A stretch of 64,000 bases of DNA from Eledone cirrhosa (lineage: Eukaryota). This document shows positions 24,589 through 53,304 of the stretch, piece after piece (position 1 is the first letter of the stretch; each line of letters begins with the position of its first letter). The notes under the pieces are model-generated. The model was not told where the DNA came from, did no database searches, and worked only from the letters and a program-made list of their open reading frames with translations. A program made the translations under genes and the position numbers. Location: the NCBI GenBank assembly GCA_964016885.1, contig OZ024756.1, forward strand, positions 20,150,001 through 20,214,000, in the 5' to 3' direction.

Positions 24589-25326
24589 AAAGAAATTGTT
24601 ATTGAATGAAAAATACATTGTTGTGGCACCTACAAGACCACTTTACTGTGTAGACTGGGTGCCTTTTATCGTGATACCTATATGAGCACTTTATAGTGTA
24701 GGCTAGGTGCATTTTATCTTGACACCTACATGACCACTTTACACACACACATACACACACACATATATATATATATATACACATGTATGTATGTATATAA
24801 ATATATACTGGTAAAATTCCATTAAAACAAATTTTTCAGTATAGCAAAATTTTTCTCAATCCCCAATTTAATAACAATCAAACCTTAGATTTGTTTCGGT
24901 CAATCTCGTTATAAAGAATTTTTCGTTACAACAAATTTTTTTTTATACCCTGTGAATTTTGTTACAATGGAATTTCACTGTATATATATATTATTTTTGT
25001 GAATTTTGTTACAATGGAATTTCACTGTATATATATATTATTTTTGAAAAGCATTTAGAAATGCGCAACCGGTAAAAACTTAAAAACTTAAAACCACAAC
25101 TGAATACTAACCCATACAATTACTAATACTCTTTTATTTCTAATTAAACCATTTTTCAACTGTGAACAATTTGTCAGCATTTTCTATTCCGTTTACCAAT
25201 ATACATATATATATATGTAGGAGGTGAGTTTTATTGTAGTACAATAAAGCAATGCAGATATCGGATAAGAAGCACTCTACAGTTTGTAGGACTGGAGTAT
25301 ACATAATATATAAGATAATATATAAG

Positions 25327-25512
25327 ATAATATATAAGATCAAAAGATGGTTAAAGGAGTTCCATGTATTTTATTATGCGCATTTCAAAAACAAACATCA
25401 TCATGCAATATTATTATAACACAAATATTATTGCATGATGATGTTTGTTTTTGAAATGCGCATAATAAAATACATGGAACTCCTTTAACCATCTTTTGAT
25501 CTTATATATTAT
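25327..25512. repeat. Inverted repeat with 84-bp arms and 18-nt loop, made of two truncated family-A hammerhead cassettes
   Basis: Arms 25327-25410 and 25429-25512. Sequence also present as a direct copy at about 26435-26612. Confidence 0.85.
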
Positions 25513-26560
25513 ATATATATATATATATATATGTATATAGTCTAACCCATGCTAGCATGGAAGATAGATGTTATGAGGATGATGATGATTCATGCATGTA
25601 TGTATATATGTGTGTGTGTGTGTCTATATCATCATCATCATCATTTTACGTCCACTTTTCCCTGCTTGCAAGGGTGGGACGACCATCTCATATTTGTTTT
25701 TTCTTTTGTATATCTTGGACTACATTATTCAATTCCATTTTTTTCTCTATTTCTTTCTTTTTACAAGATAGTAATGTGTGACTTGACAGGGAGACCTGGT
25801 TGATATTTCTATCAGATCAAAAATCCATGTAGAGTCTCCCTCATTTGGCTTGACAATGACAATGACAACGATGATTAAAATGATGGTGATGAAAATAATA
25901 ATTATAAAGAGAATAATGATGATGATGATGATGATATGGAAAACAATAGATTTATAACAGAATTTTACTGACAAAAACAACAAAACAATATAACAGCTTA
26001 ATCTTTTGTTTTTTTCTTTTAGTTTCATATTGTAGTTATTATTATTATTATTATTATTGTTGTTGCTGTTCTTTTACATTCTACCAGCATGTTGCCATTC
26101 TTCATGGCAAAACAAAAGCTCTCATCTTGGCAACAATAAGAATCGTTCTGGCACTTCCATTTTTAAGTAGTCTATGAGACAATTATTTTCTTGAGCGAGA
26201 TACAAGTGACAAGACGCTGTCTACAGAATAACTAGCAATTCCCATCACATTTCATTTCTCTCCAGATCAGGTGCTCAGACCAGCAACTTCAAGACAAGAA
26301 GACTACAAGTCTTTGATTGGTCTATCAAATAATTTCTTCTCCAATGAGTGCTTGTCTGTTATGATACATTACCAGGCAGAGTTGAGCAACAACAGAGAGA
26401 TTTATTCTGATATATATATATATATATATATAATGTAGGAGGTGAGTTTTATTGTAGTACAATAAAGCAATGCAGATATCGGATAAGAAGCACTCTACAG
26501 TTTGTGGGACTGGAGTATGCATAATATAAGATCAAAAGATGGTTAAAGGAGTTCCATATA

Positions 26561-26627
26561 TTTTATTATGCGCATTTCAAAAACAAACATCATCAAGCAA
26601 TAATATTTGTGTTTTCATCAGATAAAA
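26561..26627 (-). ncRNA. Minimal type-I hammerhead ribozyme motif (family A)
   Basis: UUUUAU-CUGAUGA-AAACACAAAUAUUAU(UGCUUG)AUGAUGUUUGUUUUU-GAAA-UGCGCA-UA/AUAAAA. Intact core, 6-bp stem I, 15-bp stem II with one mismatch, palindromic stem/loop III, AUA cleavage triplet. Confidence 0.8.
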
Positions 26628-26837
26628 CAGGAGAACATGATATGAAGGCTAAAAAACACTTGTTGATAGTGCAGTTTTAAATCAACATATGAAAAGTGGT
26701 TTTAGATTGATGTGTGATATTGGGAAAAATATTTTATTTAGAGAGGGGGGGAGAGAAAAGGATGAAAAGGGAAGGAGATGAGAGGGAGAGATGGGTGATA
26801 GAGAGAAAGAGATAGTTTTTATAACCGAGAGAAAATT

Positions 26838-26871
<34 letters not shown>

Positions 26872-27045
26872 AATTTTCTGTGTGTGAGAGAGAGTTGCGT
26901 GTGTTTGAGGGAGAGACTTGTCTGTGTTTTTATGTATGTGTGAGAGTTGCGTGTGTGTGTGTATGAGAGTTATCTGTGTGTGTGCATATTGTTGGGGGTG
27001 GGGGGTGGGGGGTATGTGTGTGAGAGAGAGAGTAGTCTGTGTTGT

Positions 27046-27079
<34 letters not shown>

Positions 27080-27214
27080 ACCTTGTACTTAGAAGTTAGA
27101 AAATGAATACCTACACACACATGTACATTTTATTGGCCACCTTGCAAAATATCAGACATTTGGCTAGGGGTAGTGCTGGGGGTAAGTATGTATGTGTTGA
27201 GGTTCAATTGTTAA

Positions 27215-27430
27215 ACCCCCTTTTCAAGTAAATCCCTTTGTGCCTCCCCATGCATATCCCAGCGATTCTGCCACAGATTGAAGCACATCAGAAATGCTTT
27301 CAACTCCACCGTGGCAGTCCTCAAGGTGCCCTCTCGGCTCTCAAGGTGAGAACCTTTCAGTGATATCTTCATTTTAGAGAATAACCAGAAGTCATAAGAA
27401 GACCATATCAGGAGAGTGGGGAGTCTAGTG
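27215..27430 (-). mobile_element. Decayed mariner-type transposase C-terminal fragment
   Basis: YDFWLFSKMKISLKG...CFNLWQNRW resembles the mariner DFxLFxxLK..W..RW motifs. Confidence 0.6.
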
Positions 27431-27689
27431 AATAAGCAAAATGCCTTTCTTTGCCAAAGTGGAGGCATGTGGCCTAGTGGTAAGGGTGTTGGACTTACAA
27501 TCATAATGTTGTAGGTCCGATTCCTTGACTGGGTTATGTGTTGTGTTCTTGAGCAAAACACTTCATTTTGCATTGATCCAGTATACTTTGCTCAAAATGA
27601 ATACCAGCAATAGCTGGGGGTTTAATCCTGCGATGGACTGGCATCATGTCTACGAGATAGTCTTGTACTCTCAGTCACTTAACACCGTC

Positions 27690-28200
27690 TGACACTATTC
27701 GAAAACTAAAAAAACAACAAGGCGCCTGGAGAAGATGGTATTCCTGCTGAGATTTTTAAACACTCTACCGACATAATAGCCATAGCCCCGCCCCTTCACA
27801 AAATCATTGTCCATGTCTGGGAATCCGAAAGCCTCCCCCAAGACTGGAGCGACACTGTTCTGCTTCCGTTTTTCAAGAAAGGCGATAAACGCTGTTGCAG
27901 CAACTACCGCAGTATAAGCCTAATCGACATTGTTGCTAACATATTCACTACCATATTACTAAAGCGATTTCAAAATCAACGAGATTCACGCACAAGGCCA
28001 AATCAACGCAGTTTTCTTACTGGTCGAGGGTGTACAAATCAGATTTTCACGCTGTGTCGGGTGCTTGAGCATCGCTGGTCTTATCAGCAGAATACCCTCG
28101 TCTGCTTCATAGATTTTGCCGCTGCATTTGATTCAGTCGATCATGGAGCCCTTTGGAAGGTTATGCATGCAGATGGTATGCCACCGAAACTCCTTAACAC
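27690..28200 (+). mobile_element. RTE-clade LINE reverse transcriptase fragment
   Basis: KAPGEDGIPAE, KKGDK..CSNYRSISL, GRGCTNQIF, FIDFAAAFDSV motifs. Confidence 0.85.
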
Positions 28201-28851
28201 CACAGAAACCAGAAGCATCAGCCTCTTGACTCTGGACATAGTTTAGACTTTTTTCTTTGTCAAGAAACTTTGGATCAACTGTGATGAGTGAGCTGGGGCT
28301 TAACCCTTTAATGTTCAAACCGGCCAGAATTCTCTACCTCTTTCTGTTGAAACTGGCTGTAACTGGCTGTATTGTTCTCAAAATAAATACTTTCAAAATC
28401 TCATAGATTCGATATTATGTGAGATAATTATGTGAGATAAAGCCTTTACCATGAAAATATAATAGTAAATATTGAGTAATGTGAATGCTAAAGGGTTAAA
28501 ATGATGCAACTCCCAGTGTTGCAAACAAGTCCCTTAGATCAGGTCTCTTGTACTGAACTGCATCATGAGGACATCGGAGGACTCCCTGATAGTACTCCTT
28601 CGTAACTCTTTGGAAAATAAAGATAATATGGGGTTACACAACCCAGTCCAGGAATCAAACCCATGACATTATGATCGTAAATCCAACACCCTTACCACTA
28701 GGCCATGCATCTCCACCTTGGCAAAGAAAGGCATGCAATTATAATTTTGCTTGACCAAGGTTAACGTAGTACTAAACAACAACAACAACAACAACAACAT
28801 CAATGTCAACAAAATGAAACTCCCGTTGATAACAATAAAGCATTTGGTTAC

Positions 28852-29100
28852 CTGTTGTAAGTTTCCCTCGACGTCTTGAACGCGGTGTTTCAGGACTGAG
28901 GCAACTTTCTGCTCAATTGGTGCCAGGACTCTGTTGAACTGTACCACGGCAGCATCCCAAAGAGGTTTTGTGTACGGGTTGTAGAGGATGGGGTTGAGTC
29001 CAGTGAAGGGTCGGAACACCTGTGACATTTTCAGCTCTTGCTGCTCCTGGGAGCTGAGCAAATGAGTAAGTTGCTCGTGGATCGAACGCAAAGTCAGGAC
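28852..29100 (-). CDS. DYNC2H1: DYNC2H1 coding exon 5 (VLTLRSIHEQL...PFTGLNPILYNPYTKPLW...NLQQ)
   Basis: Homologous to PFTGLNPVQYNPYTEPLW. Acceptor cacAG, donor GTAAC, 249 nt, phase 0. Confidence 0.95.
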
Positions 29101-29699
29101 CTGTGAATATCATATAATTATATAATGTAGACAAACAAAGTAAAACCTACTACAGTCAGTAGGCATCTCTAACAAAATACACCCCCGTCCCACCACCCCC
29201 ACCCCATCCACACCGCCCCTTTCAATGTAAAGTTATGTTGGTGCCACAACATCCAGGCTGAAACAAATGAGATCGTGTAGGTATCATGACAAAAAAACAC
29301 ACAGTTCACGCTGTAATGTGGCTGTGTAGGCAACACGGTAAAAACCTCCCAGCCCCACACTGTAAATGTGGTTGGTGTTAGGAAGAGCATCCAGCTGTAG
29401 AAAACCCACCAGACAGTCCTATGCGAGCAAGATAATCACTCTTGCCTCAAGTGGGAAAACCCCCGTCCAAACCCATGCAAGCGTGGAACACGGACGTTAA
29501 ACGTTGATGATGATGATGATGATGTAGATATATCATCATCATTATCATCATCATCACCACCATCATCATCACCACCATTACCACCACCATCATCACCATC
29601 ATCACTGTTTAACGGCCAAGTTGTCCCGATGTGAGACAAGCCAGATCAGATGACGATGTCTTATTCACACAGAACTGTTTCTGGCTTGGTTTCTACAGC

Positions 29700-29733
<34 letters not shown>

Positions 29734-29773
29734 GCGTGCGTGTGCGTGTGTGCGTGTGCGTGTGTGCGCGCGC

Positions 29774-29806
<33 letters not shown>

Positions 29807-30157
29807 TGTGTGCGTGTGTGTGTGTGTCTGTGTGCGTGTGTGTGTGTGGCATGGACGAGTTTAGAGTGAAATTGTATATAAGAGAAATAAACTGTAATGT
29901 GCAGGAGAGAAGACTGCACTGGTATGGACATGTGATGCACATGGAAGATGACCGCTGGATGAAGAAATGCCAAGTAATCCCAGTGGAAGGAAGACACAGT
30001 AGAGGAGGACCACGAAAAACATGGGCAGGGGTTTGTTGAGAGCTGACCTCAGATTGCTGAAGCTCACACAGGAGATGATGAAGGACCGTGACAAATGATG
30101 GAGAGATGCTGTGCTGAAGAGGACCAGTCCCACCCTTGCAAGCAAGGAAAAGCGGAC

Positions 30158-32460
30158 TTAAAATGATGATGATGATGATGAATTTTGATGAGTATGTATC
30201 TGTGTGAGCTTATGTGTGTTAAAATGATGATGATGATGAATTTTGATGAGTATGTATCTGTGTGAGCTTATGTGTGTTAAAATGATGATGATGATGAATT
30301 TTGATGAGTATGTATCTGTGTGAGCTTATGTGTGTTAAAATGATGATGATGATGAATTTTGATGAGTATGTATCTGTGTGAGCTTATGTGTGTGCGTGTG
30401 AGCTTGTGTGTATATCTGTGTATGTATCTGTGAGTGAGTGCTTGTGTGTGTGTGTATGTATCTGTGAGTGAGTGCTTGTGTGTGAGCTTGTGTGTGTAGC
30501 TGTGTGTGTGATAGGAATTGTGTAGTATATGTGAGTGAGTGTGTGTGTTGGCGCAGTATATGTAAGTGCATGTGTTAGTATGTATGTGTGATAGGAATTG
30601 TGTAGTATATGTGAGTGTGTGTGTATGTGTGTGATAGAATGTTATTAGGTGAGCTAACAGAGGGGGAACAGTGTGAGAGAGAGTGTGTGTGTGTGTGTGT
30701 GAGAGAGTGAGAGAGTGTGTGTGAGAGGGAGAGTGTGTGAGAGAGTGTGTGAGAGAGTGTCTGAGAGAGAGTGTGTGAGAGAGTGAGTGAGAGACAGTGA
30801 GTGAGAGAGGGTGAGACAGAGTGAGTGAGAATGAGAGAGTGTGTGAGAGAGTGTGTGAGAGAGAGTGAGAGAGAGCGAGAGAGTATGAGAGAGAGTGCGA
30901 GAGAGAGAGAGAGTATGAGAGAGTGTGTGAGAGAGTGTGTGAGAGAGAGTGAGAGAGTGTGAGAGAGTGTGTGTGAGAGTGTGAGAGAGAGTGTGAGAGA
31001 GTGTGTGTGAGAGAGTGTGTGTGAGAGAGTGTGAGAGAGTGTGTGAGAGAGTGTGTGAGAGAGAGTGTGAGAGAGAGTGCGAAAGAGAGAGAGTATGAGA
31101 GAGTGTGAGAGAGTGTGAGAGAGAGAGTGTGAGAGAGAGAGTGTGAGAGAGTGTGAGAGAGAGTGTGAGAGAGAGTGTGAGAGAGTGTGTGAGAGAGTGT
31201 GTGTGAGAGAGTGTGAGAGAGTGTGTGAGAGAGTGTGTGAGAGAGAGTGTGAGAGAGAGTGTGAGAGAGAGTGTGAGAGAGAGTGTGAGAGAGAGAGTGA
31301 GAGAGAGAGTGAGAGAGTGTGTGAGAGAGTGTGTGAGAGAGAGTGTGTGAGAGAGTGTGTGAGAGAGAGTGTGAGAGAGAGTGTGAGAGAGTGTGAGAGA
31401 GAGAGTGTGAGAGAGAGAGTGTGAGAGAGTGTGTGAGAGAGTGTGTGAGAGAGTGTGTGAGAGAGAGTGTGAGAGAGAGTGTGAGAGAGAGAGTGAGAGA
31501 GTGTGAGAGAGAGTGTGAGAGAGTGTGTGAGAGTGTGAGAGAGAGGATTATGTAAGGAGATAGTGTAAATGAAGGAATTATAGAAGACATACATGTGTCT
31601 GTGTGAATGTATGTATGCATGTATATGTATGTGTGTATACATGTATATGCATGCATGTGTATGTGTGTATACATGCATGTTTGTGTGTATGTATGTACGT
31701 GCATGCATGTTTGTGTATGTATGTATATATGCATGCATGTTTATGTGTGTGTGTGTGTATGCATGTATATGCATGCATGTTTGTGCATGTGTGAGTATGC
31801 ATCTATATGCATGCATATTTGTGTGTATGCATATATATGCATGTGTATGTGCATGTGTAAACAGGCATGTGTATGTATATGCTTGCATGTGTGTTTAGGC
31901 AGGTATGTGTCTGTGCATACATATGTGTATGTATGCATGCATGCATGTGTGTGTGTAGGTATGTACATATGTATGCATGTATGTGCATCTGTATGTATAG
32001 GTAGACGTGTGTACGTATGCATGCATATGTGTGTGTAGGCAGGCATGTATATGCATATATGCATATGCAAACGTCTCTGCATGTAGGTATGAATGTGTGT
32101 ATGCAAGCAGGCATACATGTGTGTACATGTGCATATGCATGTGTGTGCAGGAATGCAGTTGCATGTACATGTGCATATAGGTAGGCATGCATCTGCATGC
32201 ATGCATGTGTGTATGCAGGCACATGTGCTTATGTGTGCATGTATGCATGCATATATGTATATGCATATGTGTGTGTATGCAGGCATATATGTATATGCAT
32301 ATGTGTGTGTATGCAGGCATATAGGTATATGCATGTGTGTGTGTATGCAGGCATATATGTATATGTATACATATGCATGCACGTGTGTGTGAATGTATGC
32401 ATATACAGGTGTGTATGCATGCATACACAGTTGTGTGTGCATGTAGGCTGGCTGTATGTG
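30158..32460 (+). repeat. About 4 x 57-bp repeat followed by (GAGAGTGT)n and (ATGC/GT)n microsatellite fields
   Basis: Direct inspection. Source of the 437-485 aa spurious ORFs. Confidence 0.85.
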
Positions 32461-32599
32461 TCTAAGCAGCACATTCTAATGTGCTAAAAGATTACGTGCG
32501 TATAAATGCATAGATAACTTTAATTTCCCATGTGTTGAAAATCAAATAAGTATATTTGGATAGCTAAATATTGAATTCTGCATCAGAATAATGACATCA

Positions 32600-33655
32600 T
32601 ATCTAGAGAGAAATTTATCTCTCTTATCTGTTTAATACTAGAGAGAAGAAAGACATACAAGTACCAGACTATAAGGTATGGAGGAGGTCAAAAGATAAAC
32701 ACATCTCATCAGCTTAATATTACAGGAACTAAAGACATACAAGCACAAGAATATAATGTATGTTAGAGGTCATCAAAAGATCAGTTCATCTTATCTGTTT
32801 AATACTTAGGAACTAAAGACAAACAAGCACCAGATCAAGGTATGTTGGAGCTCAAAAGATCAGTTCAACATATCTGTTTAATATTCAGGAACTAAAAACA
32901 TACAAGCACCAGAATAAGGTAAGTTGGAGGTCAACAAAAAATCAGTTCATCGTATTAAACCCAGGAACTAAAAGCAAACAAGCACCCGACTAAGGTATGT
33001 TGGAGCTCAAAAGATCAGTTCATCTCATCTGTTTAGTACTCAGGAACTAAAGACATATAAGCACCAGACTAAGGTATGTTGGAGCCCACAAGATCAGTTC
33101 AATGTATCTGTTTAATACCCAGGGACTGAAGACAAACCAGCACTAGACTAAGGTAAGTTGGAGGTCAACAAAAGGTCAGTTCATCTTATGTTTAATACTA
33201 CAGGTACTAAAGACATACAAACACAACACTAAGGTAAGTTAGAAGTCAACAAAAGATCAGTTCATCTCATCTGTTTAATACCCAGGAATTAAATACATAC
33301 AAGCACCAGACTAAGGTATGTTGGAGCTCACAAGATCAGTTCAACATATCTATTTCATACACAGGGACTAAAGACAAACAACCACTAGACTAAGGTAAGT
33401 TGGAGGTCAACAAAATGTCAGTCCATCTTATCTGTTTAATACTCAGGGACTGAAGACATACAAGCACTAGACTAAGGGAAGTTAGAGGTCAACAAAAGGT
33501 CAGTTTATCTCATCTGTTTAATACTACAGGTACTAAAGACAAACAAGCACCACACTAAGGTAAGTTAGAAGTCAACAAAAGATCAGTTCATCTCATCTGT
33601 TTAATACCCAGGGACTAAAGACATACAAATACCAGACTAAAGGAAGTTAGAAATA
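32600..33655 (+). repeat. Diverged minisatellite of about 80 bp, about 13 copies, with extra copies at about 34365-34520
   Basis: Recurrent gatcagttcatc..tctgtttaatac..ggaactaaagacatacaagcaccagactaaggta. Confidence 0.8.
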
Positions 33656-36524: not shown

Positions 36525-37925
36525 ACAAAATACACCCCAGTCCATGCAGTAAAGTGGTCGTGTAGGTGTCACGATAAAAAGCACCCAGTCTACACTGTAA
36601 AGTGGTTGTGTAGGTATCATGATAAAAAGCACCCAGTCCACGTTGTAAAGTGGTTGTGTAGGTGTCATGATAAAAAGCACCCAGTCCACGTTGTAAAGTG
36701 GTTGTGTAGGTGTCATGATAAAAAGCACCCAGTCCACGTTGTAAAGTGGTTGTGTAGGTGTCATGATAAAAAGCACCCAGTCCACGTTGTAAAGTGGTTG
36801 TGTAGGTGTCACGATAAAAAACACCCAGTCTACACTGTAAAGAGGTCGTGTAGGTGTCACGATAAAAAGCACCCAGTCCACGTTGTAAAGTGGTCGTGTA
36901 GGTGTCACGATAAAAAACACCCAGTCTACACTGTAAAGAGGTCGTGTAGGTGTCACGATAAAAAGCACCCAGTCCACGTTGTAAAGTGGTCGTGTAGGTG
37001 TCACGATAAAAAACACCCAGTCTACACTGTAAAGTGGTCGTGTAGGTGTCACGATAAAAAGCACCCAGTCCACGTTGTAAAGTGGTCGTGTAGGTGTCAT
37101 GATAAAAAGCACCCAGTCTACACTGTAAAAAGGTTGTGTAGGTGTCACGATAAAAAGCACCCAGTCCACGTTGTAAAGTGGTTGTGTAGGTGTCATGATA
37201 AAAAACACCCAGTCTACAATGTAAAAAGGTTGTGTAGGTGTCACGATAAAAAGCACCCAGTCCACGTTGTAAAGTGGTCGTGTAGGTGTCACGATAAAAA
37301 ACACCCAGTCTACACTGTAAAGAGGTCGTGTAGGTGTCACGATAAAAAGCACCCAGTCCACGTTGTAAAGTGGTCGTGTAGGTGTCACGATAAAAAACAC
37401 CCACTCTACACTGTAAAGTGGTCATTTAGGTGTCACGATAAAAAAGCAATCAGTCCACGTTGTAAAGTGGTTGTGTAGGTGTCATGATAAAAAGCACCCA
37501 GTCTACACTGTAAAAAGGTTGTGTAGGTGTCACGATAAAAAGCACCCAGTCCATGTTGTAAAGAGGTCGTGTAGGTGTCACGATAAAAAGCACCCAGTCC
37601 ACGTTGTAAAGTGGTCGTGTAGGTGTCACGATAAAAAACACCCAGTCTACACTGTAAAGAGGTTGTGTAGGTGTCACGATAAAAAGCACCCAGTCCATGT
37701 TGTAAAGTGGTCGTGTAGGTGTCACGATAAAAAACACCCAGTCTACACTGTAAAGAGGTCGTGTAGGTGTCACGATAAAAAGCACCCAGTCCACGTTGTA
37801 AAGTGGTCGTGTAGGTGTCACGATAAAAAACACCCAGTCTACACTGTAAAGTGGTCATTTAGGTGTCACGATAAAAAAGCAGTCAGTCCACGTTGTAAAT
37901 GTGGTTGGTGTTAGGAAGGGCAACC
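36525..37925 (+). repeat. 45-bp tandem array of about 30 copies derived from an internal SINE segment
   Basis: Unit aaaaagcacccagtccacgttgtaaagtggtcgtgtaggtgtcacgat. Array ends in SINE sequence gtggttggtgttaggaagggc. Confidence 0.9.
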
Positions 37926-38845: not shown

Positions 38846-39269
38846 TACAGTGAGAAAAAAAAAAAAAGAAATTCTATCGGCTGATGGCTCATATAATTCT
38901 TATCATTTCATCAACAAGTATAACTAATGTATGTTTTATCTTACAACCACACATTTTATTCTACTTCAGTATTTTATTACTCCTTCATTAAATATGCAGA
39001 CACTAGCATACTTCTTGTTATCATATGTATGGCATCTCAGAATTATTTAACTTCTAAATAACTCTGTCTTGCTATGTCAACAAATATACATTTCCAGATA
39101 TTTATGTTAGTGATTCATTAACCTGTTGACTGCTGAGTATATTTAACACAGCTTCAGTTGCTGTGCCGGGTATTATTTTTTAGTAAAATGACTAATTTTT
39201 TAAACAAACATCTATTAACAACACATATCTAAATGATTGACAAATGTCAATAAACTAGTAACCCCATCT

Positions 39270-39700
39270 AACTTTGAAGTTATGAACTGTTGGAAATGAG
39301 TTCATAACTTTGAAGCTATGAACTGTTGGAAACGAGTTCATAACTTTGAAGCTATGAACTGTTGGAAACGAGTTCATAACTTCGAAGTTATGAACTGTTG
39401 GAAACGAGTTCATAACTTTGAAGCTATGAACTGTTGGAAACGAGTTCATAACTTTGAAGCTATGAACTGTTGGAAAAGAGTTCATAACTTTGAAGCTATG
39501 AACTGTTGGAAACGAGTTCATAACTTTGAAGTTATGAACTGTTGGAAACGAGTTCATAACTTTGAAGCTATGAACTGTTGGAAACGAGTTCATAACTTTG
39601 AAGCTATGAACTGTTGGAAACGAGTTCATAACTTTGAAGCTATGAACTGTTGGAAACGAGTTCATAACTTTGAAGTTATGAACTGTTGGAAAAGAGTTCA
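39270..39700. repeat. 36-bp hairpin-unit tandem array of about 12 copies inside a family-2 MITE
   Basis: Unit tttgaa-gttatgaact-gttggaaacg-agttcataac with an internal 10-bp inverted repeat. Confidence 0.88.
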
Positions 39701-40774
39701 AACATGTTAAGATGAATTATCTCATCCATGGCACTGGAATACAAACATGTTAGGACGAGTTATCTCGTCTACAGCACTGAAGAGGTTAACTCTTATGTAT
39801 GTAAATGTGAACCCATGACTCCTGAAGGAGACATAGGGGTGTTGTTGTGACATTTGGCAGGTCTTGGGGATTTTAAACCTGGTGGAGCCTCATTCTCACT
39901 TTAGGTCTGAACATAGCTGATTTCTTCTAGAGAGAGAACAGGAGAGGGAGAGAGAGGGTGAGGGTGGGGGAAAGGAAGAGGGAGGGAGTGGGAAAGAGAG
40001 AAAGAGGGAGAAAGAGAGAGAGAGAGGGAGCAGGGAAAGAGAGAGAGGTGGAAGTGGGAAAGAGATATAGAGAAAGAATTGAACCCAGTATTAGGCTAGT
40101 ACTTTTTTATCGACTGCAAAAGGCTGAAAGGCAAAGTTGACCTCAGTGGGATTTGAACTGAGAGAGCAAAGAGCTGGAACTAATATCACAAAGCATTCTA
40201 TCCCACACTAATGACTCCATTAAATCTTAACATCCTGCAATGATTTAGCAGGAAATATCTAAAATCAGGTTTGTTAATACCTTTATTAGTGGACAGATCA
40301 TTAAAAAAATATTATACATGACAAAAAAGAACATTACAAGAAATCTCATATGTTATAAAATAAATAGGATGTGTTTGGGTTTCAATATGTAAACTAAACG
40401 TCTAATTCTGGTTTCTAAAAAAGTCAAAGGAGACAGCCTAGAAAAATTACCGATTTTCCAACCCCCATTTATTATATGGGTCCCAAGAGAAGCTGTAAAA
40501 CCATACTTACACTATGTCAAGAATGGAATATATGAGCAAGACATGGTTCTTCAATCTGTCTAATTTTTTACTGTGATGACCTGCCTAACTCATGACAACA
40601 TGCAAATCATCATCATCATTGTTTAATCCTTTAACATTTACATTACACTATATACACTACGGTATTTTCATGGTAAAGACTTTATCTCACATAATATCGA
40701 ATCTATGAGATGTTGATATTATTTATTTCGAGAACAATATCTTAACATCAGTATGTGTGGCCAGTTACTTGCCA

Positions 40775-41398
40775 AGTTCTATGTTGAGTGTGAAAGATAG
40801 TTATATAGACTTATGACCAGGTTCTATGTTCAGTGTGAAAGATAGTTATATAGACTTATGACCAGGTTCTATGTTCAGTATGAAAGATAGTTATATAGAC
40901 TTATGACCAGGTTCTATGTTCAGTGTGAAAGATAGTTATATAGACTTATGACCAGGTTCTATGTTCAGTGTGAAAGATAGTTATATAGACTTATGACCAG
41001 GTTCTATGTTCAGTATGAAAGATAGTTATATAGACTTATGACCAGGTTCTATGTTCAGTGAGAAAGATAGTTATATAGACTTATGACCAGGTTCTATGTT
41101 CAGTGTGAAAGATAGTTATATAGACTTATGACCAGGTTCTATGTTCAGTGTGAAAGATAGTTATATAGACTTATGACCAGGCTCTATGTTCAGTGTGAAA
41201 GATAGTTATATAGACTTATGACCAGGCTCTATGTTCAGTGTGAAAGATAGTTATATAGACTTATGACCAGGTTCTATGTTGAGTGTGAAAGATAGTTATA
41301 TAGACTTATGACCAGGCTCTATGTTCAGTATGAAAGATAGTTATATAGACTTATGACCAGGCTCTATGTTCAGTGTGAAAGATAGTTATATAGACTTA
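40775..41398 (+). repeat. 45-bp minisatellite, about 14 copies
   Basis: Unit accaggttctatgttcagtgtgaaagatagttatatagacttatg. Confidence 0.9.
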
Positions 41399-43217: not shown

Positions 43218-43530
43218 TGGTGGTGTATAGAGTGGTGGTGTGTATATATGGTGGTGTATATATGGTAGTGAATATATATATATATATATATACATATATG
43301 TAAGTATGCATGTATACGTACATACATATATGTATACAGACGTACAGTAGCATGCACATATATATATATATACATATGCATACAGGTACACATACATATA
43401 TGCACGTATCAGTTTAGCGGCGCTTATTATAACGTCGCTTTGTTCGTTTGTAAACAAACTGAACAGCCTGAATTTATGCCATACGGTGTTAAGGCAACCA
43501 CGTCACCTTTTTGTTCAACACTGACACAGG

Positions 43531-43575
43531 AACGATGTACTAGTTTCAAGCTTGTTAGCTATCATCAGCACCGTT
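43531..43575 (-). ncRNA. Minimal type-I hammerhead ribozyme motif (family B, sense to DYNC2H1)
   Basis: AACGGUG-CUGAUGA-UAGC(UAACAA)GCUU-GAAA-CUAG-UA/CAUCGUU. 7-bp stem I, intact core, palindromic ACUAGU stem III, GUA triplet. First stem II pair is U.U. Confidence 0.75.
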
Positions 43576-43782
43576 TACCCATCTGCCAGATAGTTGAACG
43601 TTCGAAAGTATATACTCACTAAGAGTGAGAAATGAAATTTCGTTTTCATTTTGTTTCAATTTATCGTTTTCGGTATGCCTGACCGATTTAACTCACTCAA
43701 TATGCAAATTAGGCTGCTCAGCCGTTAATTTTCATAAGGAAAGTATATACTTTCGAACGTTCAACTATCTGGCAGATGGGTA

Positions 43783-43827
43783 AATGGTGCTGATGATAGC
43801 TAACAAGCTTGAAACTAGTACATCGTT
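43783..43827 (+). ncRNA. Minimal type-I hammerhead ribozyme motif (family B, inverted copy)
   Basis: AAUGGUG-CUGAUGA-UAGCUAACAAGCUU-GAAA-CUAG-UA/CAUCGUU. Differs from the other copy by one C/U change that keeps stem I paired as U-G. Confidence 0.72.
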
Positions 43828-44186
43828 CCTGTGTCAGTGTTGAACAAAAAGGTGACGTGGTTGCCTTAACACCGTATGGCATAAATTCAGGCTGTTCAGT
43901 TTGTTTACAAACGAACAAAGCGACGTTATAATAAGCGCCGCTAAACTGATACGTGCATATATGTATGTGTACCTGTATGCATATGTATATATATATGTAT
44001 ATATATATATATATGTGCATGCTACTGTACGTCTGTATACATATATGTATGTACGTATACATGCATACTTACATTTAAGTAAGTGCCATACTAAGAGTGA
44101 GAAATGAAATTTCGTTTTCATTTTGTTTCAATATATACATATATATATACATATATATACATATATACATACATATATATACATAT

Positions 44187-44824: not shown

Positions 44825-45057
44825 CTCTTTTATTCTGTCTGCGAGCTGTGAAAGGTCAGTCGGAACAAATTTGATTCCATCCCATGGATGGGGAGTGTAC
44901 CGTTTCCATAAGTGGACAGTGAAAGACTCACAGATGTTAATCCAAGTCTCACAGATGGTAATGCCAGACTGAAGAACTTGGCAGATGTTAGAGTAGTAGC
45001 CATACCAAATGTCTTCATCGGCCAGCTTCTTCTTCACATAGCAGGCAATAGAGGAAG
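44825..45057 (-). CDS. DYNC2H1: DYNC2H1 coding exon 4 (ASSIACYVKKKL...WKRYTPHPW...RIKE)
   Basis: Homologous to the WQRYVPHPW segment. Acceptor tttcAG, donor GTCAG, 233 nt, phase 1 to 0. Confidence 0.95.
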
Positions 45058-45281
45058 CTGAAATTGGTTTAAAATACACATATATATATATATAGTAACA
45101 ATAATAAATTTGAAGATTAAAATCCAAAGAGGGCTCGCTAAGGATAAATACATATCAAATATACAAGAACTCTAGAGCAAATATTTATTAAAATAACAGA
45201 TTAAAGTTTAAGCAAAGAATCTTCAGAAGATCCCGTTCAGGTTGAAAGCAGCGATTCTTTGCTTACACTTTAATCTGTTAA

Positions 45282-45336
<55 letters not shown>

Positions 45337-45517
45337 CATACACATAGATATATATATATATATATATATATATACTTAGGTTAATAGGAGTTAGGTATTG
45401 TATACCCGTGTCCCATTAAGGTATTGGCAGCATAATAATTAGCTCTATGCTTTGGAGCAGAGCCGTATATATGAAAAAGAACACAAGAGCGTCTACAACA
45501 TCAAAAGATTTTTATTG

Positions 45518-45563
45518 GCTTACAATGTTTCTTCCTTACGTAACCGTAGGATTCGTCAGAGCT
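45518..45563 (-). ncRNA. Degenerate type-I hammerhead ribozyme motif (family C)
   Basis: GCU-CUGACGA-AUCCUAC(GGUUAC)GUAAGGAA-GAAA-CAUUG-UA/AGC followed by AAUAAA. Core intact, stem I only 3 bp, A.A at the base of stem II. Confidence 0.6.
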
Positions 45564-45889
45564 ATAAAAGGGGTTTGATTGGTGTTATGGACTCTACCAA
45601 CCAAACATTCAAGAACAAAGAGTAAAGAGAGTAAAGAGCAAAAGTTGGGGACGATAAGTCTAATTTTGGTGCGGGAGGGTGGGGTGTATATATATATATA
45701 TGTGTATGTGTATATATATATACATATTATATTATATATATATGTATGTGTATATATATATGTATATATATATATATATATAGTAATAATAATAAATTTG
45801 AAGACTAAAATCCAAAGAGGGCTCGATAAGGATAAATATATATCAAATATATAAGAACCCTAGAGGAAATATTTATATATATATATATA

Positions 45890-45970
45890 TACATGGTGCC
45901 CCCAAAAATGTATACACACTTCAACAGCATTCTAATCAATATGTGTATACATTTTTGGGGACACCCTGTG
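45890..45970. mobile_element. About 80-bp TIR-only Tc1/mariner-type MITE
   Basis: tacatggtgcccccaaaaatgtatacaca ... tgtgtatacatttttggggacaccctgtg. Confidence 0.65.
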
Positions 45971-46047
45971 TATTAAATGAAAAAAATTGAACATTGGAAA
46001 ATAACGAAGATATTCTTTCTAAACAAACTAATATGTTCTCCACCTGC

Positions 46048-46950
46048 CACACACACATATACACATACACACAGGCACACACACATACATACACACAGAC
46101 ACAATATACACACAAACATAAATACACACAGGCACACATACATACACACAGACACACATATATACACACAGGCACACACACATACATACACTTAGACATA
46201 CACACAGACACAATATACACACAAACATAAATACACACAGGCACACATACATACACACAGACACACATATATACACACAGGCACACACACATACATACAC
46301 TTAGACATACACACAGACACAATATACACACAAACATAAATACACACAGGCACACATACATACACACAGACACACATATATACACACACATACATACACT
46401 TAGACATACACACGGACACAATATACACACAAACATAAATACACACAGGCACACATACATACACACAGACACACATATATACACACAGGCACACACACAT
46501 ACATACACTTAGACATACACACAGACACAATATACACACAAACATAAATACACACAGGCACACATACATACACACAGACACACATATATACACACAGGCA
46601 CACACACATACATACACTTAGACATACACACAGACACAATATACACACAAACATAAATACACACAGGCACACATACATACACACAGACATACATATATAC
46701 ACACAGGCACACACACATACATACACACGCGCACAGACAAACATAAATACACACAGGCACACATACATACACAGACACACATATATACACAGACACACAT
46801 AAATACACACAGGCACACACACATACATACACACACAGAGACATACACACACACACACATACACACAAACATAAATACATACAGGCACACATACATACAC
46901 ACACACACACAAACATAAACACATACACGCAGACACACACATACAAACAG
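46048..46950 (+). repeat. CA-rich compound tandem repeat with a unit of about 109 bp
   Basis: Recurrent cacttagacatacacacagacacaatatacacacaaacataaat. Confidence 0.8.
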
Positions 46951-47155
46951 ATAGATACACTCATCACTGTCATTGTTATTTACTCTGATCCTCAAATGAT
47001 ACTGCCAATACGCCCCCCCCCCATCCATATCTAGGAATATTAAATCAATCCTAGTATATGACTGGTACTTTACCTTGTTACCCTCACCTCCAACCCCATC
47101 CCAGAAGTATGTAAAGCGAGGTTGACTTTAACATGGCTTGAACCAGCATCTGAAG

Positions 47156-47450
47156 CAGGCATGGGCAACCTTTTTCGAGAAGTAGGCCGCATGATATGAT
47201 ATGGGTCATCACCAGACGAGCCGCAAGCGCTAATTTACATTCGCTAATTTACATTAAAAAAAGGGCAGTAACTCAGGTTGCTTTGATTTGTTTCTTCAGA
47301 ATTCATACATGTTGCTTTCCTCGATCATAAAAATGATAGAAAGATAAATTACGACTGAAAAGTTGGGGTAAAACAATCTGAAAGATTTCACTTAGGTGAC
47401 CTAGGTGAGCCATTCAGAAAGCTCCGCAGGCCACAGGTTGCCCACGACTG
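47156..47450. mobile_element. hAT (Charlie-like) MITE, 295 bp
   Basis: TIRs caggcatgggcaacct / aggttgcccacgactg. Flanking 8-mers atctgaag and gtctaaag match 6 of 8 and resemble the NTCTAGAN target preference. Confidence 0.75.
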
Positions 47451-50345
47451 GTCTAAAGAGCTATATCTATATATCACAAACATTTATATACCACACTGTA
47501 AATGTGGTTGGTGTTAGGAAGGGCATCCAACTGTAGAAAACCTGCCAGACAGTCCTATGCGAGCAAGACAATCACTCTTGCCTCAAGTGGGAAAACCCCC
47601 GTCCAAACCCATGCAAGCGTGGAACACGGACGTTAAACGTTGATGATGATGATGATGATGATGATTTCCCCCAATCCTCTAATGATTCTGTGGAAAGATT
47701 ACCTTGTACAGAATCATCATCATCATCATTGTTGTTTTAACATCCACTTTACCTGCTAATAAGATTTGCTGGCCACTGCCATCATGCCACCTATGAGGCT
47801 GTGTCCCCATTAGTGCTTTGGAAACCACAAGCAGTCACTAATAACAGGGGGCGCAAGCTCTCCTATCCCGATGTCATCTCCAGAGATTCTGGTATTGAAA
47901 TCCAGGATTTAGTAACGGCAATGAATGACTGACCCACGTGGAGATCAATTGTTGAGTCGATCTTGGCTGAGGCCACCAGATGATGATGAGAAAGGGTTGG
48001 ATGGGTCTACATAGAGCAAGGCTACTGATCTGTGTCTCGCATTCTACCGCGTACACAGAAGAGGTTGTCATGTCTTTGACACAACTGAGGGTTCTCCCAG
48101 CCCTATGTTTAGCAAGCTTTTTATGACTGGATGCCCTTCCTATCACCAACCACTTTACAGTGTGTACTAGGTGTGTTTATCGTGTAGATCACCAACACTA
48201 GGGAGTCTGTCATGTCCTTCACACAAGTAAGGAGTTCTCCCAAACCTATGTTTGGCAAGCTTTCTATAGCTGGATGCCCTTCCTAACACCAACCACTTTA
48301 CAGCTTGTACTAGGTGTGTTTATCGTGTAGATCACCAACACTAGGGAGTCTGTCATGTCCTTCACACAAGTAAGGAGTTCTCCCAAACCTATGTTTGGCA
48401 AGCTTTCTATAGCTGGATGCCCTTCCTAACACCAACCACTTTACAGCTTGCACTTGGCGCGTTTATTGTGTAGATCATCAACAGTGGGGAGATTGTCATG
48501 TCCTTGACATGACTGAGGGGGTCCTCCCAACCTTTTGTTTGGCAAGCTTCCTAAAACCAACCACTCTACAGCATGTACTGGTTTGTAAAACTCAATTCAG
48601 AACTGAATTTCAAAGTCTATCAGGAGAGTATTAATCGCTTGCATGAAACTGATGGTTTAAGTAATAAACTGGTGACTCATATTATATGTTGTTAGCTGTA
48701 TGGTGTTATAAAGCTGATGACACAGCCAGCTGGTCATCATCACCATTTAACATCCATGTTTCCATGCCAGTTGATATTTCAGTAAATTATTTACTGGGTG
48801 ACTTTAGTCATCTCAGGTCACATAAGGGTCAATATCTACAAACTCATTATAAAAGAAAAGAAAAAAAAACTACATCGACACAACAATGAAGGCGGTGGAT
48901 TGGCAGAATCAGTAAAACCTTGGAAAATAAAAAAAATCTTAGGTCTGTTTCAAGCCCGGAGGCTCATCAGGCTGGTGTTTATCCCAGTTTCCATGGCATC
49001 AGGCAACTGAGAATACAAGACTCCCCCCTGGACAGAATGCCAGTCCATCACATTGGCCGGTTTGAACATTAAAGGGTTACCCTTAATGTTCAAACCGGCC
49101 AAAACCGGCAAGAATTCTCTACCTCTTTCTGTTGAAACTGGCCACTCAAACTGATGTTAAGGTATTGTTCTCAAAATAAATACTTTAAAAATCTCATAGA
49201 TTCGATATTACGTGAGATATTATGTGAGGTAAAGCCTTTACGATGAAAATACAATAGTATATATATAGTAATATGAATGCTAAAGGGTTAAACCCCCAGC
49301 TATTCTTGATGGTACTTATTTTCAGCTGAGTATACTGGAGCAATGTGAAATGAAGTGTTTTGCTCAAGAACACAACACACAACCCAGTCCAGGACTCAAA
49401 CCCACAACATTATGATTGTAAGTCTAACACCCTTACCACTATTGCCAAGCAATATTTCTTCAGGCTTTTTACATTCTGAGTTTGAATACCATTGTGGTCA
49501 ATCTCAACTTAGCTTTTCATCGTTCCAGGGTCAATGAAATAAAGTACCACTAATGGAGGAGAGTGGGAAGGTTTGAACCAAGAATCTTGTGCCAGTGAAG
49601 GAAACATCTTAACTCTTTAGCATTTAAACCAGCCTTAACCAGCCAGAATTTTCCCACCTCTTTCTGTTCAAATCAGCCATAACTAGCCACTCATAAGGTA
49701 TCATTCTCAAAATAAATAATATCAAAATCTCAGAGATTCCATATTATGTGAGATAAAGCCTTTGACATGAAAATATAACAGTAGAGTAATGCCAATGCTA
49801 AAAGGCTAAACTACTCAGCCATAATTATTATATACCCATGCCAAATTTTTATAAACCAATTTGCCAGAAGAATAAAAAAAAAAGGGCTTCCCTCCCCACC
49901 ACCACAAAAAAACAAAAAAAAAACAAATGTACCGCATTTCCCAGCATCAAAGACGCTACATTTTTCAGAAAATAAGTCTCAAAAATCTACCATGCGTCCT
50001 GGAGGCAAAAGGTTGTTTATCATTTATTTCAAGTTTTTGGTTGTCAAAATTAGGGTCTGTCCTCGAGAACGAAAGGGTCTTCAGCACCGGGGGGGGGGGG
50101 GGGGGGGAATACGGTAGCTTCCCTCCCCATGAAAAAAAAAGACCCTTCCCACCCCACCACCTCAAAAAAACAAATGTAGATTCCCTCTCTATCAAAAAAG
50201 GGGCTTCCCTCCCCACCACCATCACCACAAAAAACAACAAAAAAACAAATGTAGATTCCCTCCTCATAAAAACACATAATGGTGGCTTCCTTTCCTCTTC
50301 ATCAATAAAAAACCCAACAAATAACCAAAGTGATCTTAAACTAAC

Positions 50346-50615
50346 CTATCACATCCATTAAATGTCTCATTCGGTTTTCTGAATAAACAGGTTCACAATC
50401 CGTCTGTTTCCAGACATCATCCAGGACATCCTGGGTTGTTTCAATCAGTTCAAGAACATTTTGCATTTCCAGGCAGTCTAAACCATTGCCATAATCCTTG
50501 CAGATTGGTTGGAACAGTTCCTGGAAGTACTTGGCTCTTTCTCGCTCCTCCGTAGACTGGCTTGAAAGGACTACATCGGACCAAAACTGAAATTCATCTT
50601 CGGGGGTGATGATTC
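50346..50615 (-). CDS. DYNC2H1: DYNC2H1 coding exon 3 (GIITPEDEFQFW...ETTQDVLDDVWKQT...RMRHLMDVI)
   Basis: Matches the recalled human ILTPSDEFQFW and ETTQDVVDDVWRQT segments. Acceptor atcAG, donor GTTAG, 270 nt, phase 1 to 1. Confidence 0.95.
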
Positions 50616-51893
50616 CTGATAAAATGGAAGAGAACATTTAGATTAACTGACATTTTTTTAGATTTATCTTTATTCTGGTGATCTACACAATAAATCCACC
50701 CAGTACACTCTGTAAAGTAACTGCTGATAGGAAGGGCATCCAGCCCCAGTCACTCTGTCTCGTCTTTTGGTAAGAATGAAATCTATCTAGCTGACATGCT
50801 CACCTGATCTATAGGTGATTAAGTGGTTGTCTCACTTTTTGAAGTTCGTGTTACAGATAAATAGGTCATTTGTGTCTCAGAATTGCAGCAGTCTGAAACC
50901 TTCCTTGTTTCTAGCACCAAACCCATAACCCCATGGATCCTGTCGAAGCCCTCACAGTGTTGCCCAATATGTCCTGTTAAAGTCTCCTGCAATGAGTATG
51001 AGGTTGCTATCGTTTATTTCAGAAGTAGTGTGCATTAGGGACTCATAAAACCTGTATTTTAGTATGTCTGGCAGTCAATATTGATGTATGTAAGCAGATA
51101 TAATTGTCATGGTTGTTCTATTTAGTACAAGTCTAAGTTTAATATTCTGTCATTTATTCTATTTACAGCAATTATTTTGTTTACTCAATTTTCTGCTGCC
51201 AATATCCTTACTCCACCCAGCCCGTCATCATTTCCCACCCAGGAAAATTTGTCGCATTGTTTCTTGCCCATGAAAAATCTAGCTGACATCCCCCCTCCAT
51301 CTAGTCTTATATACACAGCACACATCAATTTTATTTTGTTCAAGCATCTCTACAATCTCTCCAGATCTTCCTTTTATTGTGCCTACATTGATGGTGCCAA
51401 CTCTGAAGTTATCAAGTTCAATGGAAGAGTGAGAAGAAGAAGAAGAAAACTTGGTAGGGGATGTGAGGGATGAGTTGGCATTGCTTTCCCATATCTGAAA
51501 TAAAGAAGAGCTATTGCATGGTCATCCAGAGCAGGTTGGTGGGTTCATATTCATCATTAGAAATGCTCCAGCTTAGTAATCCATATGCCATACAGAACAA
51601 ACAACAGGCCCATAACAACTGTACTAGAAGTAGTAGTGTCTATTGCAATAGAGATATATTAATTTATATCTCTATAAAGTTCACTGCCTTTAATACATAA
51701 ATATCTCAATGCCAGGATAAGATATATTAATAAATTATCCACTGAGTAATAAAAAATATTAAATTTAAGCCAAAACTCATTTTTGGGGGGATATAAGCCA
51801 AATCAACTGAAAAAAAGTCAGTTTTGACTTATATAATGCCCTGACCATGGGCTCTGGAACCCCAAGATATTGGAAGAATTTAATGAAAGGAAA

Positions 51894-51940
<47 letters not shown>

Positions 51941-53304
51941 TATAATAAACAACATAAGGCAATTATTCCATTTACCAGTGGTTTCTTAAAAGTGGTTTCT
52001 TAAAAATATTACTTCATTTACACATATATATATATATATATATGGAGGCACATGGCTTAGTGGTTAGAGCATTGGCTTGCACGAAAGGTTGTGAGTTCAA
52101 TTCTCAGACTGGGTGATGTGTTGTTTCCTTGAGCAAGAGACTGTATTTCACATTGCTCCAGTTTACTCAGCTGTAGAAATGAGATGATAGGGACTGGGGT
52201 TCATATCATTCCACTGCAAAATGGTCGTGTAGGCGCCACGGAAAAAAAAGCACCCAGCACTCACTGTAAATGAGGTTGGTGTTAGGAAGGGCATCCAGCT
52301 GTAGAAATCAAGCCAGAATCAGTTCCCATATGAGCAAGACATGGTCAGCCGACCGGATACTGCCCACAACTGGACAACCCGTCTAACCCATGCTAGCATG
52401 GAAGAACGGACGTAAAACAGTGATGATGATAATGATATATATATATATAAATATATTCAAAATTAAATTAAGGGTTGTCATGTCTGAGACACATGCGCCA
52501 TATCCACTGCAGAATAAGCTCAAAGATTCCAATGAATAGATCCGAGCATTTTATATCGATTAGAAATTGATTGACATATATATATATATAAAATAAACAT
52601 ATGAAACAATCACAGTGATTGTTTCATATGTTTACTTTATATATATGTCAATCTATTTCTAGTTGATATATATATATATATATACACCCTCGTCCCACCC
52701 CATCCACACCGCCCCCTTCAATGCAAAGTTATGTTGGTGCCACAACATCCAGGCCGAAACAAACGAGATCGTGTAGGTGTCACGACAAAAAAACACAGTC
52801 CACGCTGTAATGTGGCCGTGTAGGCAACACGGTAAAAACCTCCCAGTCCACACTGTAAATGTGGTTGGTGTTATGAAGGGCATCCAGCTGTAGAAAACGC
52901 GCCAGGCAGTCCACGCTGTAATGTGGCCGTGTAGGCAACACGGTAAAAACCTCCCAGCCCCACACTGTAAATGTGGTTGGTGTTAGGAAGGACATCCAGC
53001 TGTAGAAAACCCGCCAGATAGTCCTATGCGAGCAAGACAACCACTCTTGCCTCAAGTGGGAAAACTCCCGTCCAAACCCATGCAAGCGTGGAACAGGGAC
53101 GTTAAACGATGATGATGATGATGATGATGATGATATATTTATATATATAGTCACTTCAATAGGGGCTTCTGGTAATTCACAGAAATGCTGAAGAGTTTGA
53201 TTGCCAGCCAAACTAATTATTTGTTGTCTCAAAAACAATGGCCGTCTCCGGAACTGAGGTTCAACAACCCAATTATATCATTGAGAAAACTATTAATTTG
53301 AATA

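What the first reader, a model, noticed from the sequence alone, without database searches (positions are those of the whole stretch)
25040..53290. Intronic hammerhead-ribozyme cassettes from several families next to (TA)n tracts (Penelope-like/retrozyme relic system)
Seen: four hammerhead cores (CUGAnGA...GAAA...UH with closing stem I) at 26561, 43531, 43783 and 45518 in three unrelated flanking sequences, plus decayed copies at 25.3-25.5 kb and 53.2 kb. Each lies in a short non-coding island adjacent to (TA)n, often duplicated or inverted. Known: Penelope-like elements and non-autonomous retrozymes carry minimal type-I hammerheads with very short, often palindromic stem III that can cleave as dimers. 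Inference: this genome hosts several small ribozyme-bearing, TA-associated retroelement families. No RT or GIY-YIG ORF for them is visible in this window.
Basis: partly seen in the sequence, partly recalled or inferred. Interest (0 to 1): 0.85.

Follow-up and report, generated by a model that had tools for sequence, protein, structure and literature searches.

The report
Hammerhead-bearing Penelope ends and a retrozyme
The four self-cutting 'hammerhead' RNA motifs in these introns are real: two are the cut-off ends of a known group of jumping genes that insert into TA repeats, and two belong to one insertion of a protein-less 470-base repeat whose ends suggest it likely borrows such an element's enzyme, although RNA cutting and circles remain untested.

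Summary
All four cores are real type I hammerheads (strict scan 3 hits against 0.015 in shuffles; the fourth has a bulged stem I). They lie in introns of a DYNC2H1 gene and belong to three repeat families, which are young and abundant, not relics. A (9,795 exact k-mer matches) and C (793) are 5'-truncated 3' ends of Hydra-clade Penelope-like elements. Elsewhere in the genome they sit behind RT + GIY-YIG ORFs with the clade's motifs, and two A copies are open over 821 codons. B (10,333) is an ORF-less 468-480 bp tandem non-LTR retrozyme with a sister family (10,748) showing compensatory stem changes. A, B and C each end at two fixed points next to (TA)n. Head-to-head insertions carry one short and one tailed end (A 11 of 12, B 8 of 9), the Penelope signature. 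Units within one B insertion are nearly identical, which fits rolling-circle copying. The 25.2-25.5 kb copy is a truncated A foldback; 53.2 kb is not confirmed. B's partner, cleavage and circles are not shown. The scan reported the same system on other pieces of this genome. Known kinds, new families.

The parts
26433..26830 (-). Family A: 5'-truncated 3' end (about 400 bp, tailed end) of a Hydra-clade PLE, between two (TA)n tracts
   Evidence: 96% identical to the 3' end of the full element in L103; TA tracts at about 26410-26432 and 26841-26868
26559..26629 (-). Type I hammerhead of family A (long stem II, palindrome AUGCGCAU at stem III, site UA)
   Evidence: 9,795 exact 31-mer matches genome-wide, 0 for the reversed control
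25214..25507 (.). Family A head-to-head foldback: tailed arm 25214-25415 (-) and short arm 25418-25507 (+), both truncated within stem II; no complete ribozyme
43298..43616 (-). Family B retrozyme, inverted 5'-truncated arm ending at the short end next to a TA-rich tract
43531..43575 (-). Type I hammerhead of family B, inverted arm (palindrome ACUAGU)
43618..44131 (+). Family B retrozyme, direct arm: one full unit of about 474 bp plus terminal repeat (tailed end), followed by a 250-bp (TA)n tract
43783..43827 (+). Type I hammerhead of family B, direct arm
   Evidence: 10,333 exact 37-mer matches, control 0
45372..45687 (-). Family C: 5'-truncated 3' end (316 bp, tailed end) of a second Hydra-clade PLE, between (TA)n tracts
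   Evidence: 98% to L061 pLTR; ORF follows the pLTR in L061, L062, L063
45511..45569 (-). Type I hammerhead of family C (bulged stem I, ACAUUGU at stem III)
   Evidence: 793 exact 26-mer matches, control 0
53185..53225 (+). CUGAAGA plus hairpin without GAAA; not confirmed as a hammerhead
50344..50619 (-). Host gene exon (approximate limits), cytoplasmic dynein 2 heavy chain 1
   Evidence: E 9e-23 to DYNC2H1 chain 6rla_A
28850..29101 (-). Host gene exon (approximate limits), DYNC2H1, downstream in the protein of the 50.3 kb exon
   Evidence: E 1.5e-23 to 6rla_A

Best explanation
The cassettes are insertions of three abundant repeat families into intronic (TA)n tracts: two are truncated 3' ends of Hydra-clade Penelope-like retrotransposons, and one is a protein-less tandem retrozyme that is likely copied by such an element's enzyme. 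Shown: family membership, RT-GIY-YIG ORFs upstream of the A and C hammerheads, two fixed 3' ends per family abutting (TA)n, and one short plus one tailed end in head-to-head insertions. Inferred: the PLE endonuclease cuts both strands of a TA tract, and reverse transcription is primed twice, at two internal sites 55-95 nt apart on the RNA. The two cDNAs stop early and are joined, giving the foldbacks. The hammerhead lies about 45 nt upstream of the short end in A and C, so it is the part that survives 5' truncation. For B, tandem transcripts would self-cleave as dimers through the palindromic stem III, circularise, and be reverse-transcribed round the circle to give arrays of identical units. 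The single window copies are predicted to be inactive as monomers.
For: Hydra motifs in intact A ORFs (L102, L103, 821 codons) and in C ORFs match section 11 of PMC8557442, whose supplement lists an Octopus Hydra family with (TA)n target and HHR. Ends: A 28 of 30 at two points, 25 of these 28 followed by a TA run and 2 running on into the next unit; C 27 of 29. About 0.75% of window positions are followed within 6 nt by (TA)5+. One short plus one tailed end: A 11 of 12 pairs, B 8 of 9 with one unclear, B2 3 of 3 with both ends read. B differences over about 170 nt: within insertions 0.73 (same strand, n=89) and 0.38 (inverted, n=76; 56 pairs from one array, the other 20 average 1.45), against 6.5 between insertion representatives (n=253). 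B-clan hammerhead: 6 of 13 pairs with double changes, 91.5% of cells paired, covariation above all 500 shuffles and all slid controls. B monomer folds at z -7.4, or -3.9 without its TA-rich arm; B2 at z -4.9 with similar hairpins. Palindrome duplexes are -10.5, -4.8 and -2.3 kcal/mol for A, B, C.
Against: No cleavage, circle or transcript was shown. No autonomous element with a B-like end was found in the 203 loci held, and B shows only a weak version of the RCUC...GAGY hairpin seen past the short ends of several Hydra-type families. One 20-unit B stretch (L112) averages 5.5 differences within the array, and three inverted pairs differ by 4-7. In the predicted B circle, stem III has probability 0 and active-register stem I 0.03-0.14: this fits dimer-only cleavage but also no cleavage. 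In the anole PLE, hammerhead cleavage was not needed for insertion in vitro and no RNA ends were seen at the site (PMC11167929). Only 1 of 9 Xenopus retrozyme dimers cleaved (bioRxiv 2026.07.22.740005). Covariation rests on few independent lineages, and the tool warns that relatedness inflates it.
Confidence: 0.8

Rival explanations
1. B is copied by PLE machinery from linear read-through transcripts of already homogenised tandem master arrays; no RNA circle and no ribozyme cleavage is involved.
For: Long arrays exist as possible masters (31 B2 units on one strand at C1:5.74-5.75 Mb; arrays in L070 and L112). Hammerhead mutants of the anole PLE still insert.
Against: Different insertions carry different haplotypes while units within most insertions are near-identical, inverted arms included. 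The core and stems are conserved with compensatory changes across B, old B and B2, which implies selection on the ribozyme fold.
Confidence: 0.3
2. B is mobilised by a non-Hydra TA-targeting PLE (Naiad or Neptune).
For: Naiads prefer (TA)n and Octopus Naiads are listed. A fragment I read as Neptune-like from recalled motifs lies in L051. No B-Hydra sequence homology was found.
Against: PMC8557442 describes cephalopod Naiads as long-inactivated remnants, while B is young. Intact, young Hydra ORFs are present, and B follows the same end rule as A.
Confidence: 0.25
3. B is a DNA satellite spread by slippage and recombination between TA tracts; the hammerhead is incidental.
For: The unit holds an internal TA-like tract, and some long arrays are internally diverged.
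Against: Dispersed insertions start and stop at two fixed points with the one-short-one-tailed rule, and the RNA fold covaries.
Confidence: 0.05
4. The motifs are domesticated intronic ribozymes that regulate DYNC2H1, like the amniote HH9/HH10 motifs (recalled).
For: Three of the four cores lie on the pre-mRNA strand; B gets weak HH9 scores.
Against: Each is a young copy of a family with 800-10,000 matches. Stem III is 2 bp, and the B pair would form a 259-bp duplex in the pre-mRNA.
Confidence: 0.03

Closest known systems
Hydra clade of Penelope-like elements, including Hydra-1_Obim (Craig et al. 2021, PMC8557442; passages, section 11, supplement part 2 of 59 and supplement search hits seen)
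   Same: RT plus C-terminal GIY-YIG, RW, DKT, CxCX5C linker, no CCHH, CxxC/CxH, type I HHR near the 3' end, (TA)n target, inverted 5'-truncated copies, tail at one end.
   Different: The A and C hammerheads differ in sequence from the listed Hydra-1_Obim motif. Elements are longer (about 3.7 kb for A and 4.6 kb for C, against generally under 3 kb), with long 3' UTRs and tails of about 90 nt against 30-40 bp. Copy numbers are very high.
Metazoan non-LTR retrozymes (Cervera and de la Pena 2020, PMC7229834, passages seen; Li et al., bioRxiv 10.64898/2026.07.22.740005, parts 1-3 of 5, supplements not seen)
   Same: ORF-less, low-GC tandem units with one type I HHR each and a highly self-paired monomer; PLEs proposed as mobilisers.
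   Different: The 466-480 bp unit is above the 150-450 bp range given in 2020 but within the 51-972 bp range of 2026. Insertions show PLE-type ends in (TA)n. No pLTR homology to a partner was found, and circles are not shown.
Minimal PLE hammerheads (Cervera and de la Pena 2014, PMC4209133; parts 1-2 of 4 read)
   Same: Hammerheads in pLTRs, mostly as solo truncated copies and as opposite-strand pairs 100-700 bp apart, with palindromic stem III and a dimer model.
   Different: These have a 2-bp stem III with a 2-4 nt loop and 7-10 bp stem I, closer to canonical metazoan type I than to stem-III-less minimal motifs.
Poseidon PAc of Anolis (Frangieh et al. 2024, PMC11167929; parts 1-2 of 4 read)
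   Same: Two internal RT start sites bracket the 'tail'; AT-rich target cut on both strands.
   Different: Different clade. No strand difference in start site was seen in vitro, whereas genomic pairs here carry one of each end.

Membership tests
Hydra-clade PLE (families A, C) | Single ORF, RT followed by C-terminal GIY-YIG endonuclease | tested here: met
   A: 821-codon open frames in L102 and L103. C: 724-codon frame in L061 with a frameshift before the EN; EN part read in L063. Assigned by motifs; Pfam gave no RT or EN hit.
Hydra-clade PLE (families A, C) | RWK-type motif and DKG changed to DKT | tested here: met
   A: RRLRWT and SDKT; C: KRIRWR and SDKT. RW is kept; the third residue is T or R, not K.
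Hydra-clade PLE (families A, C) | CxCX5C linker; no CCHH; CxxC and CxH around conserved E and N | tested here: met
   CNCRIKNKC and CNCRRSSNC; one C between the GIY and YIG boxes; CNLCLNE...NRR...CLH and CDLCLLE...NRK...CQH
Hydra-clade PLE (families A, C) | Canonical type I HHR near the 3' end | tested here: met
Hydra-clade PLE (families A, C) | Insertion into (TA)n | tested here: met
   empty sites not examined
Hydra-clade PLE (families A, C) | Generally under 3 kb | tested here: not met
   About 3.7 kb (L103) and 4.6 kb (L061) because of long 3' UTRs; a descriptive, not diagnostic, trait in the paper
Hydra-clade PLE (families A, C) | RT phylogeny groups with Hydra references | not tested
   Reference sequences were seen only as text in the supplement; they share visible blocks with A and C, but no tree was built
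Naiad PLE | N-terminal GIY-YIG, DKA | tested here: not met
   EN is C-terminal and the motif is DKT
Non-LTR retrozyme (family B) | Tandem units of a few hundred bp, one type I HHR per unit | tested here: met
   468-480 bp units, dimers to 15-20+ units
Non-LTR retrozyme (family B) | No coding capacity | tested here: met
   Longest ATG ORFs 39 and 74 aa in a multimer; no PLE ORF joined to B in the loci held
Non-LTR retrozyme (family B) | Highly self-paired monomer | tested here: met
   z -7.4; -3.9 without the TA-rich arm
Non-LTR retrozyme (family B) | Self-cleavage in vitro | not testable with these tools
   Only conservation and covariation
Non-LTR retrozyme (family B) | Expressed as unit-length linear and circular RNA | not testable with these tools

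The most novel reading that the evidence does not exclude
Families B and B2 are active circular-RNA parasites that a Hydra-clade PLE enzyme copies by rolling-circle reverse transcription, primed twice from the two strands of a cut TA tract at two structurally defined RNA sites. With more than 20,000 copies and intact young Hydra ORFs in the same genome, this would be a ready in vitro pair for the open question of how animal retrozymes are mobilised and what PLE hammerheads are for.
Probability: 0.4. Interest if true: 0.62.

Novelty: new member of a known kind. Interest (0 to 1): 0.35.

Why it matters
PLE-driven mobilisation of animal retrozymes has been argued from co-occurrence and pLTR homology (PMC7229834; bioRxiv 2026.07.22.740005). 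Here the retrozyme's insertions carry the PLE footprint itself: TA target, inverted truncated arm, and one short plus one tailed end. They also map the two likely priming sites, and intact candidate enzymes are at hand, so the idea becomes directly testable. The kinds of element are published, including a Hydra family with HHR and (TA)n target in Octopus. Five literature searches listed no paper describing these families, and an Octopus vulgaris repeat annotation had no occurrence of hammerhead, ribozyme or retrozyme in its main text (PMC13282606). Subscription papers, repeat databases and bioRxiv supplements were not seen.

Tried and rejected
Whole-window Rfam scan: no hammerhead among the 150 listed of 215 matches, which were microsatellite-driven miRNA hits. 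DNA search with family A returned nothing because common words are skipped; a pattern search then gave 9,795. My first guess from recalled N-terminal motifs, Naiad, was rejected by domain order. Pfam and PDB did not recognise the PLE ORF; 18 unnamed homologues at 29-38% identity were found. Expression: no RNA holder listed, which is no evidence either way. Four contig-only runs of unknown kind were laid on B: one gave 4,395 contigs, two gave single near-unit-length contigs (486 and 470 nt) at low depth; not interpretable, and whether those runs also hold family A stays open. The Hydra element near the C4 B array (L111) has its own, different hammerhead and ends, so it was not taken as the partner. 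A search for B's tail hairpin outside B found nothing, nor did two of the short B motifs in the Craig supplement; the third hit only ORF sequence. The genome-wide count of B short ends (2,397, control 955) is too noisy to use. The alignment was out of register and one search used mis-set columns; both were discarded in favour. The 53.2 kb motif was rejected.
Full report
Observation. The four cores are present at the stated places: 26559-26629 (-), 43531-43575 (-), 43783-43827 (+), 45511-45569 (-). A strict type I scan found three of them, against 0.015 per window in 200 local dinucleotide shuffles. The fourth has a bulge after three stem I pairs and appears in the loose list of 12. Folding gives stems I and II for each, with unremarkable z-scores (-0.4 to -1.7). 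Rfam gives only weak HH9 hits for B and none for A or C. The 53.2 kb site lacks GAAA and is single-copy, so it is not confirmed. The host is DYNC2H1 on the minus strand, so three of the four cores are on the pre-mRNA strand. The 3.0-Gb genome is likely an octopod; I infer this from repeat content and earlier scan notes and did not test it.

Copy number. Exact k-mers give 9,795 matches for A, 10,333 for B and 793 for C, with 0 for reversed controls. The best 40 B and C matches are 97-100% identical. A pattern for B-like cores excluding B gave 10,748 more, mostly a sister family B2 with a 466-469 bp unit. A scan of the 173 loci then held, plus the window, gave 76 distinct hammerhead sequences in well over a dozen families.

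A and C are Hydra-clade PLE ends. Full A elements in L102 and L103 have 821-codon open frames followed by about 1.1 kb of 3' UTR, the hammerhead and a tail. C elements have the ORF directly behind one pLTR and a second pLTR downstream. The proteins show RW, DKT, a C-terminal GIY-YIG with a CxCX5C linker, no CCHH, and CxxC and CxH around E and N. These are the features given for the Hydra clade in PMC8557442 section 11, whose supplement lists Hydra-1_Obim with (TA)n preference and a different hammerhead. No tree was built. The window holds only 3' fragments: 400 bp of A, 316 bp of C, and an A foldback at 25214-25507 truncated inside stem II.

B is a non-LTR retrozyme. It occurs as monomers to long tandem arrays of 468-480 bp units with no ORF over 74 aa. 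The monomer folds strongly (z -7.4; -3.9 without the TA-rich arm), and B2 folds into similar hairpins. Across 10 B-clan hammerheads, 6 of 13 pairs show changes on both sides, above all 500 shuffles in covariation score and above slid controls. Few independent lineages underlie this.

Insertion anatomy. Each family ends at two fixed points. A: 28 of 30 ends lie at two sites about 90 nt apart, 25 of them followed by TA runs. C: 27 of 29 (24 short, 3 tailed). B: two sites about 57 nt apart. In head-to-head insertions one arm has the short end and the other the tailed end: A 11 of 12, B 8 of 9 (one unclear), B2 3 of 3 with both ends read. The window's B insertion and A foldback follow the rule. 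This is the tail-at-one-end pattern of PLEs, and in the anole PLE the tail lies between two internal RT start sites. Units within a B insertion are mostly near-identical while insertions differ (0.4-0.7 against 6.5 differences; 1.45 for inverted pairs outside the largest array), with exceptions: L112 at 5.5, and three inverted pairs at 4-7.

Mechanism. Shown: the anatomy above. Inferred: a PLE ribonucleoprotein cuts both strands of (TA)n and primes two cDNAs at the two sites; these truncate and join. The hammerhead, about 45 nt upstream of the short end in A and C, survives truncation, which explains the solo and inverted cassettes. For B, tandem transcripts would cleave as dimers (palindromes AUGCGCAU, ACUAGU and ACAUUGU form duplexes of -10.5, -4.8 and -2.3 kcal/mol), circularise, and be copied round the circle. 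Stem III is absent in the predicted B circle. Against: no RNA evidence here, no B-like end on any coding element in my loci, cleavage dispensable for anole PLE insertion in vitro, and only 1 of 9 Xenopus retrozyme dimers cleaved. My odds: A and C as Hydra ends 0.93; B as a PLE-mobilised retrozyme 0.8; Hydra as the partner about 0.65; circle as the template about 0.6.

Comparison and novelty. Hammerheads in PLE repeats (PMC4209133), Hydra PLEs in (TA)n including Octopus (PMC8557442), and tandem non-LTR retrozymes with PLEs as proposed mobilisers (PMC7229834; bioRxiv 2026.07.22.740005) are all in print. What is new is the families, their abundance, and the PLE footprint on retrozyme insertions. 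Earlier notes of this scan describe the same system on other pieces of this genome and in other genomes. I reached my reading before seeing them and treat them as leads only; their shared-hairpin lead held for Hydra-type ends but only weakly for B. Verdict: real, well explained, new members of known kinds; interest 0.35.

Noticed in passing
Other copies (L166, L153) show a non-canonical CAGAAGA-hairpin-GAAA motif.
   Followed up: partly
window 20330-20650 and 24814-24975: Two diverged (82%) copies of a repeat with CUGAGGA...GAAA but weak stems. The downstream part of the 20.4 kb copy is 75-77% similar to the tail of a hammerhead-bearing family (L064, L144); possibly a decayed PLE end.
   Followed up: partly
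L012:347-812 (-); G000 C1:5.738-5.752 Mb: Sister retrozyme family B2 (466 bp), with one insertion of 31 units on one strand plus an inverted arm and the same end rule.
   Followed up: yes
L103, L061, L111, L047, L138, L004, L053, L063: A hairpin of the form RCUC...GAGY lies a few bases past the short end in several Hydra-type families; B has only a minimal look-alike. Judged by eye, no control.
   Followed up: partly
L111:7632-8594 (-), L064:4326-4949 (+), L063:3720-4605 (-): At least three further Hydra-type families with CxCX5C linkers; different families pile into the same TA tracts.
   Followed up: partly
window 43358-44000: The inverted B arms would form a 259-bp, 99% duplex in the DYNC2H1 pre-mRNA, a possible A-to-I editing substrate (inference).
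   Followed up: no
window 43618-43967: Two public runs with other organism codes hold single near-unit-length contigs (486 and 470 nt) with the 6-nt deletion seen in the C5 array; run kind unknown.
   Followed up: no
window 6330-7297, 13917-15895, 22000-23689, 36536-37905, 39269-39700, 40772-41398: Many minisatellites, several apparently built from pieces of common SINE/LINE sequence; LINE-like ORF fragments at 288-692, 9254-10532 and 27710-28246 (names recalled).
   Followed up: no
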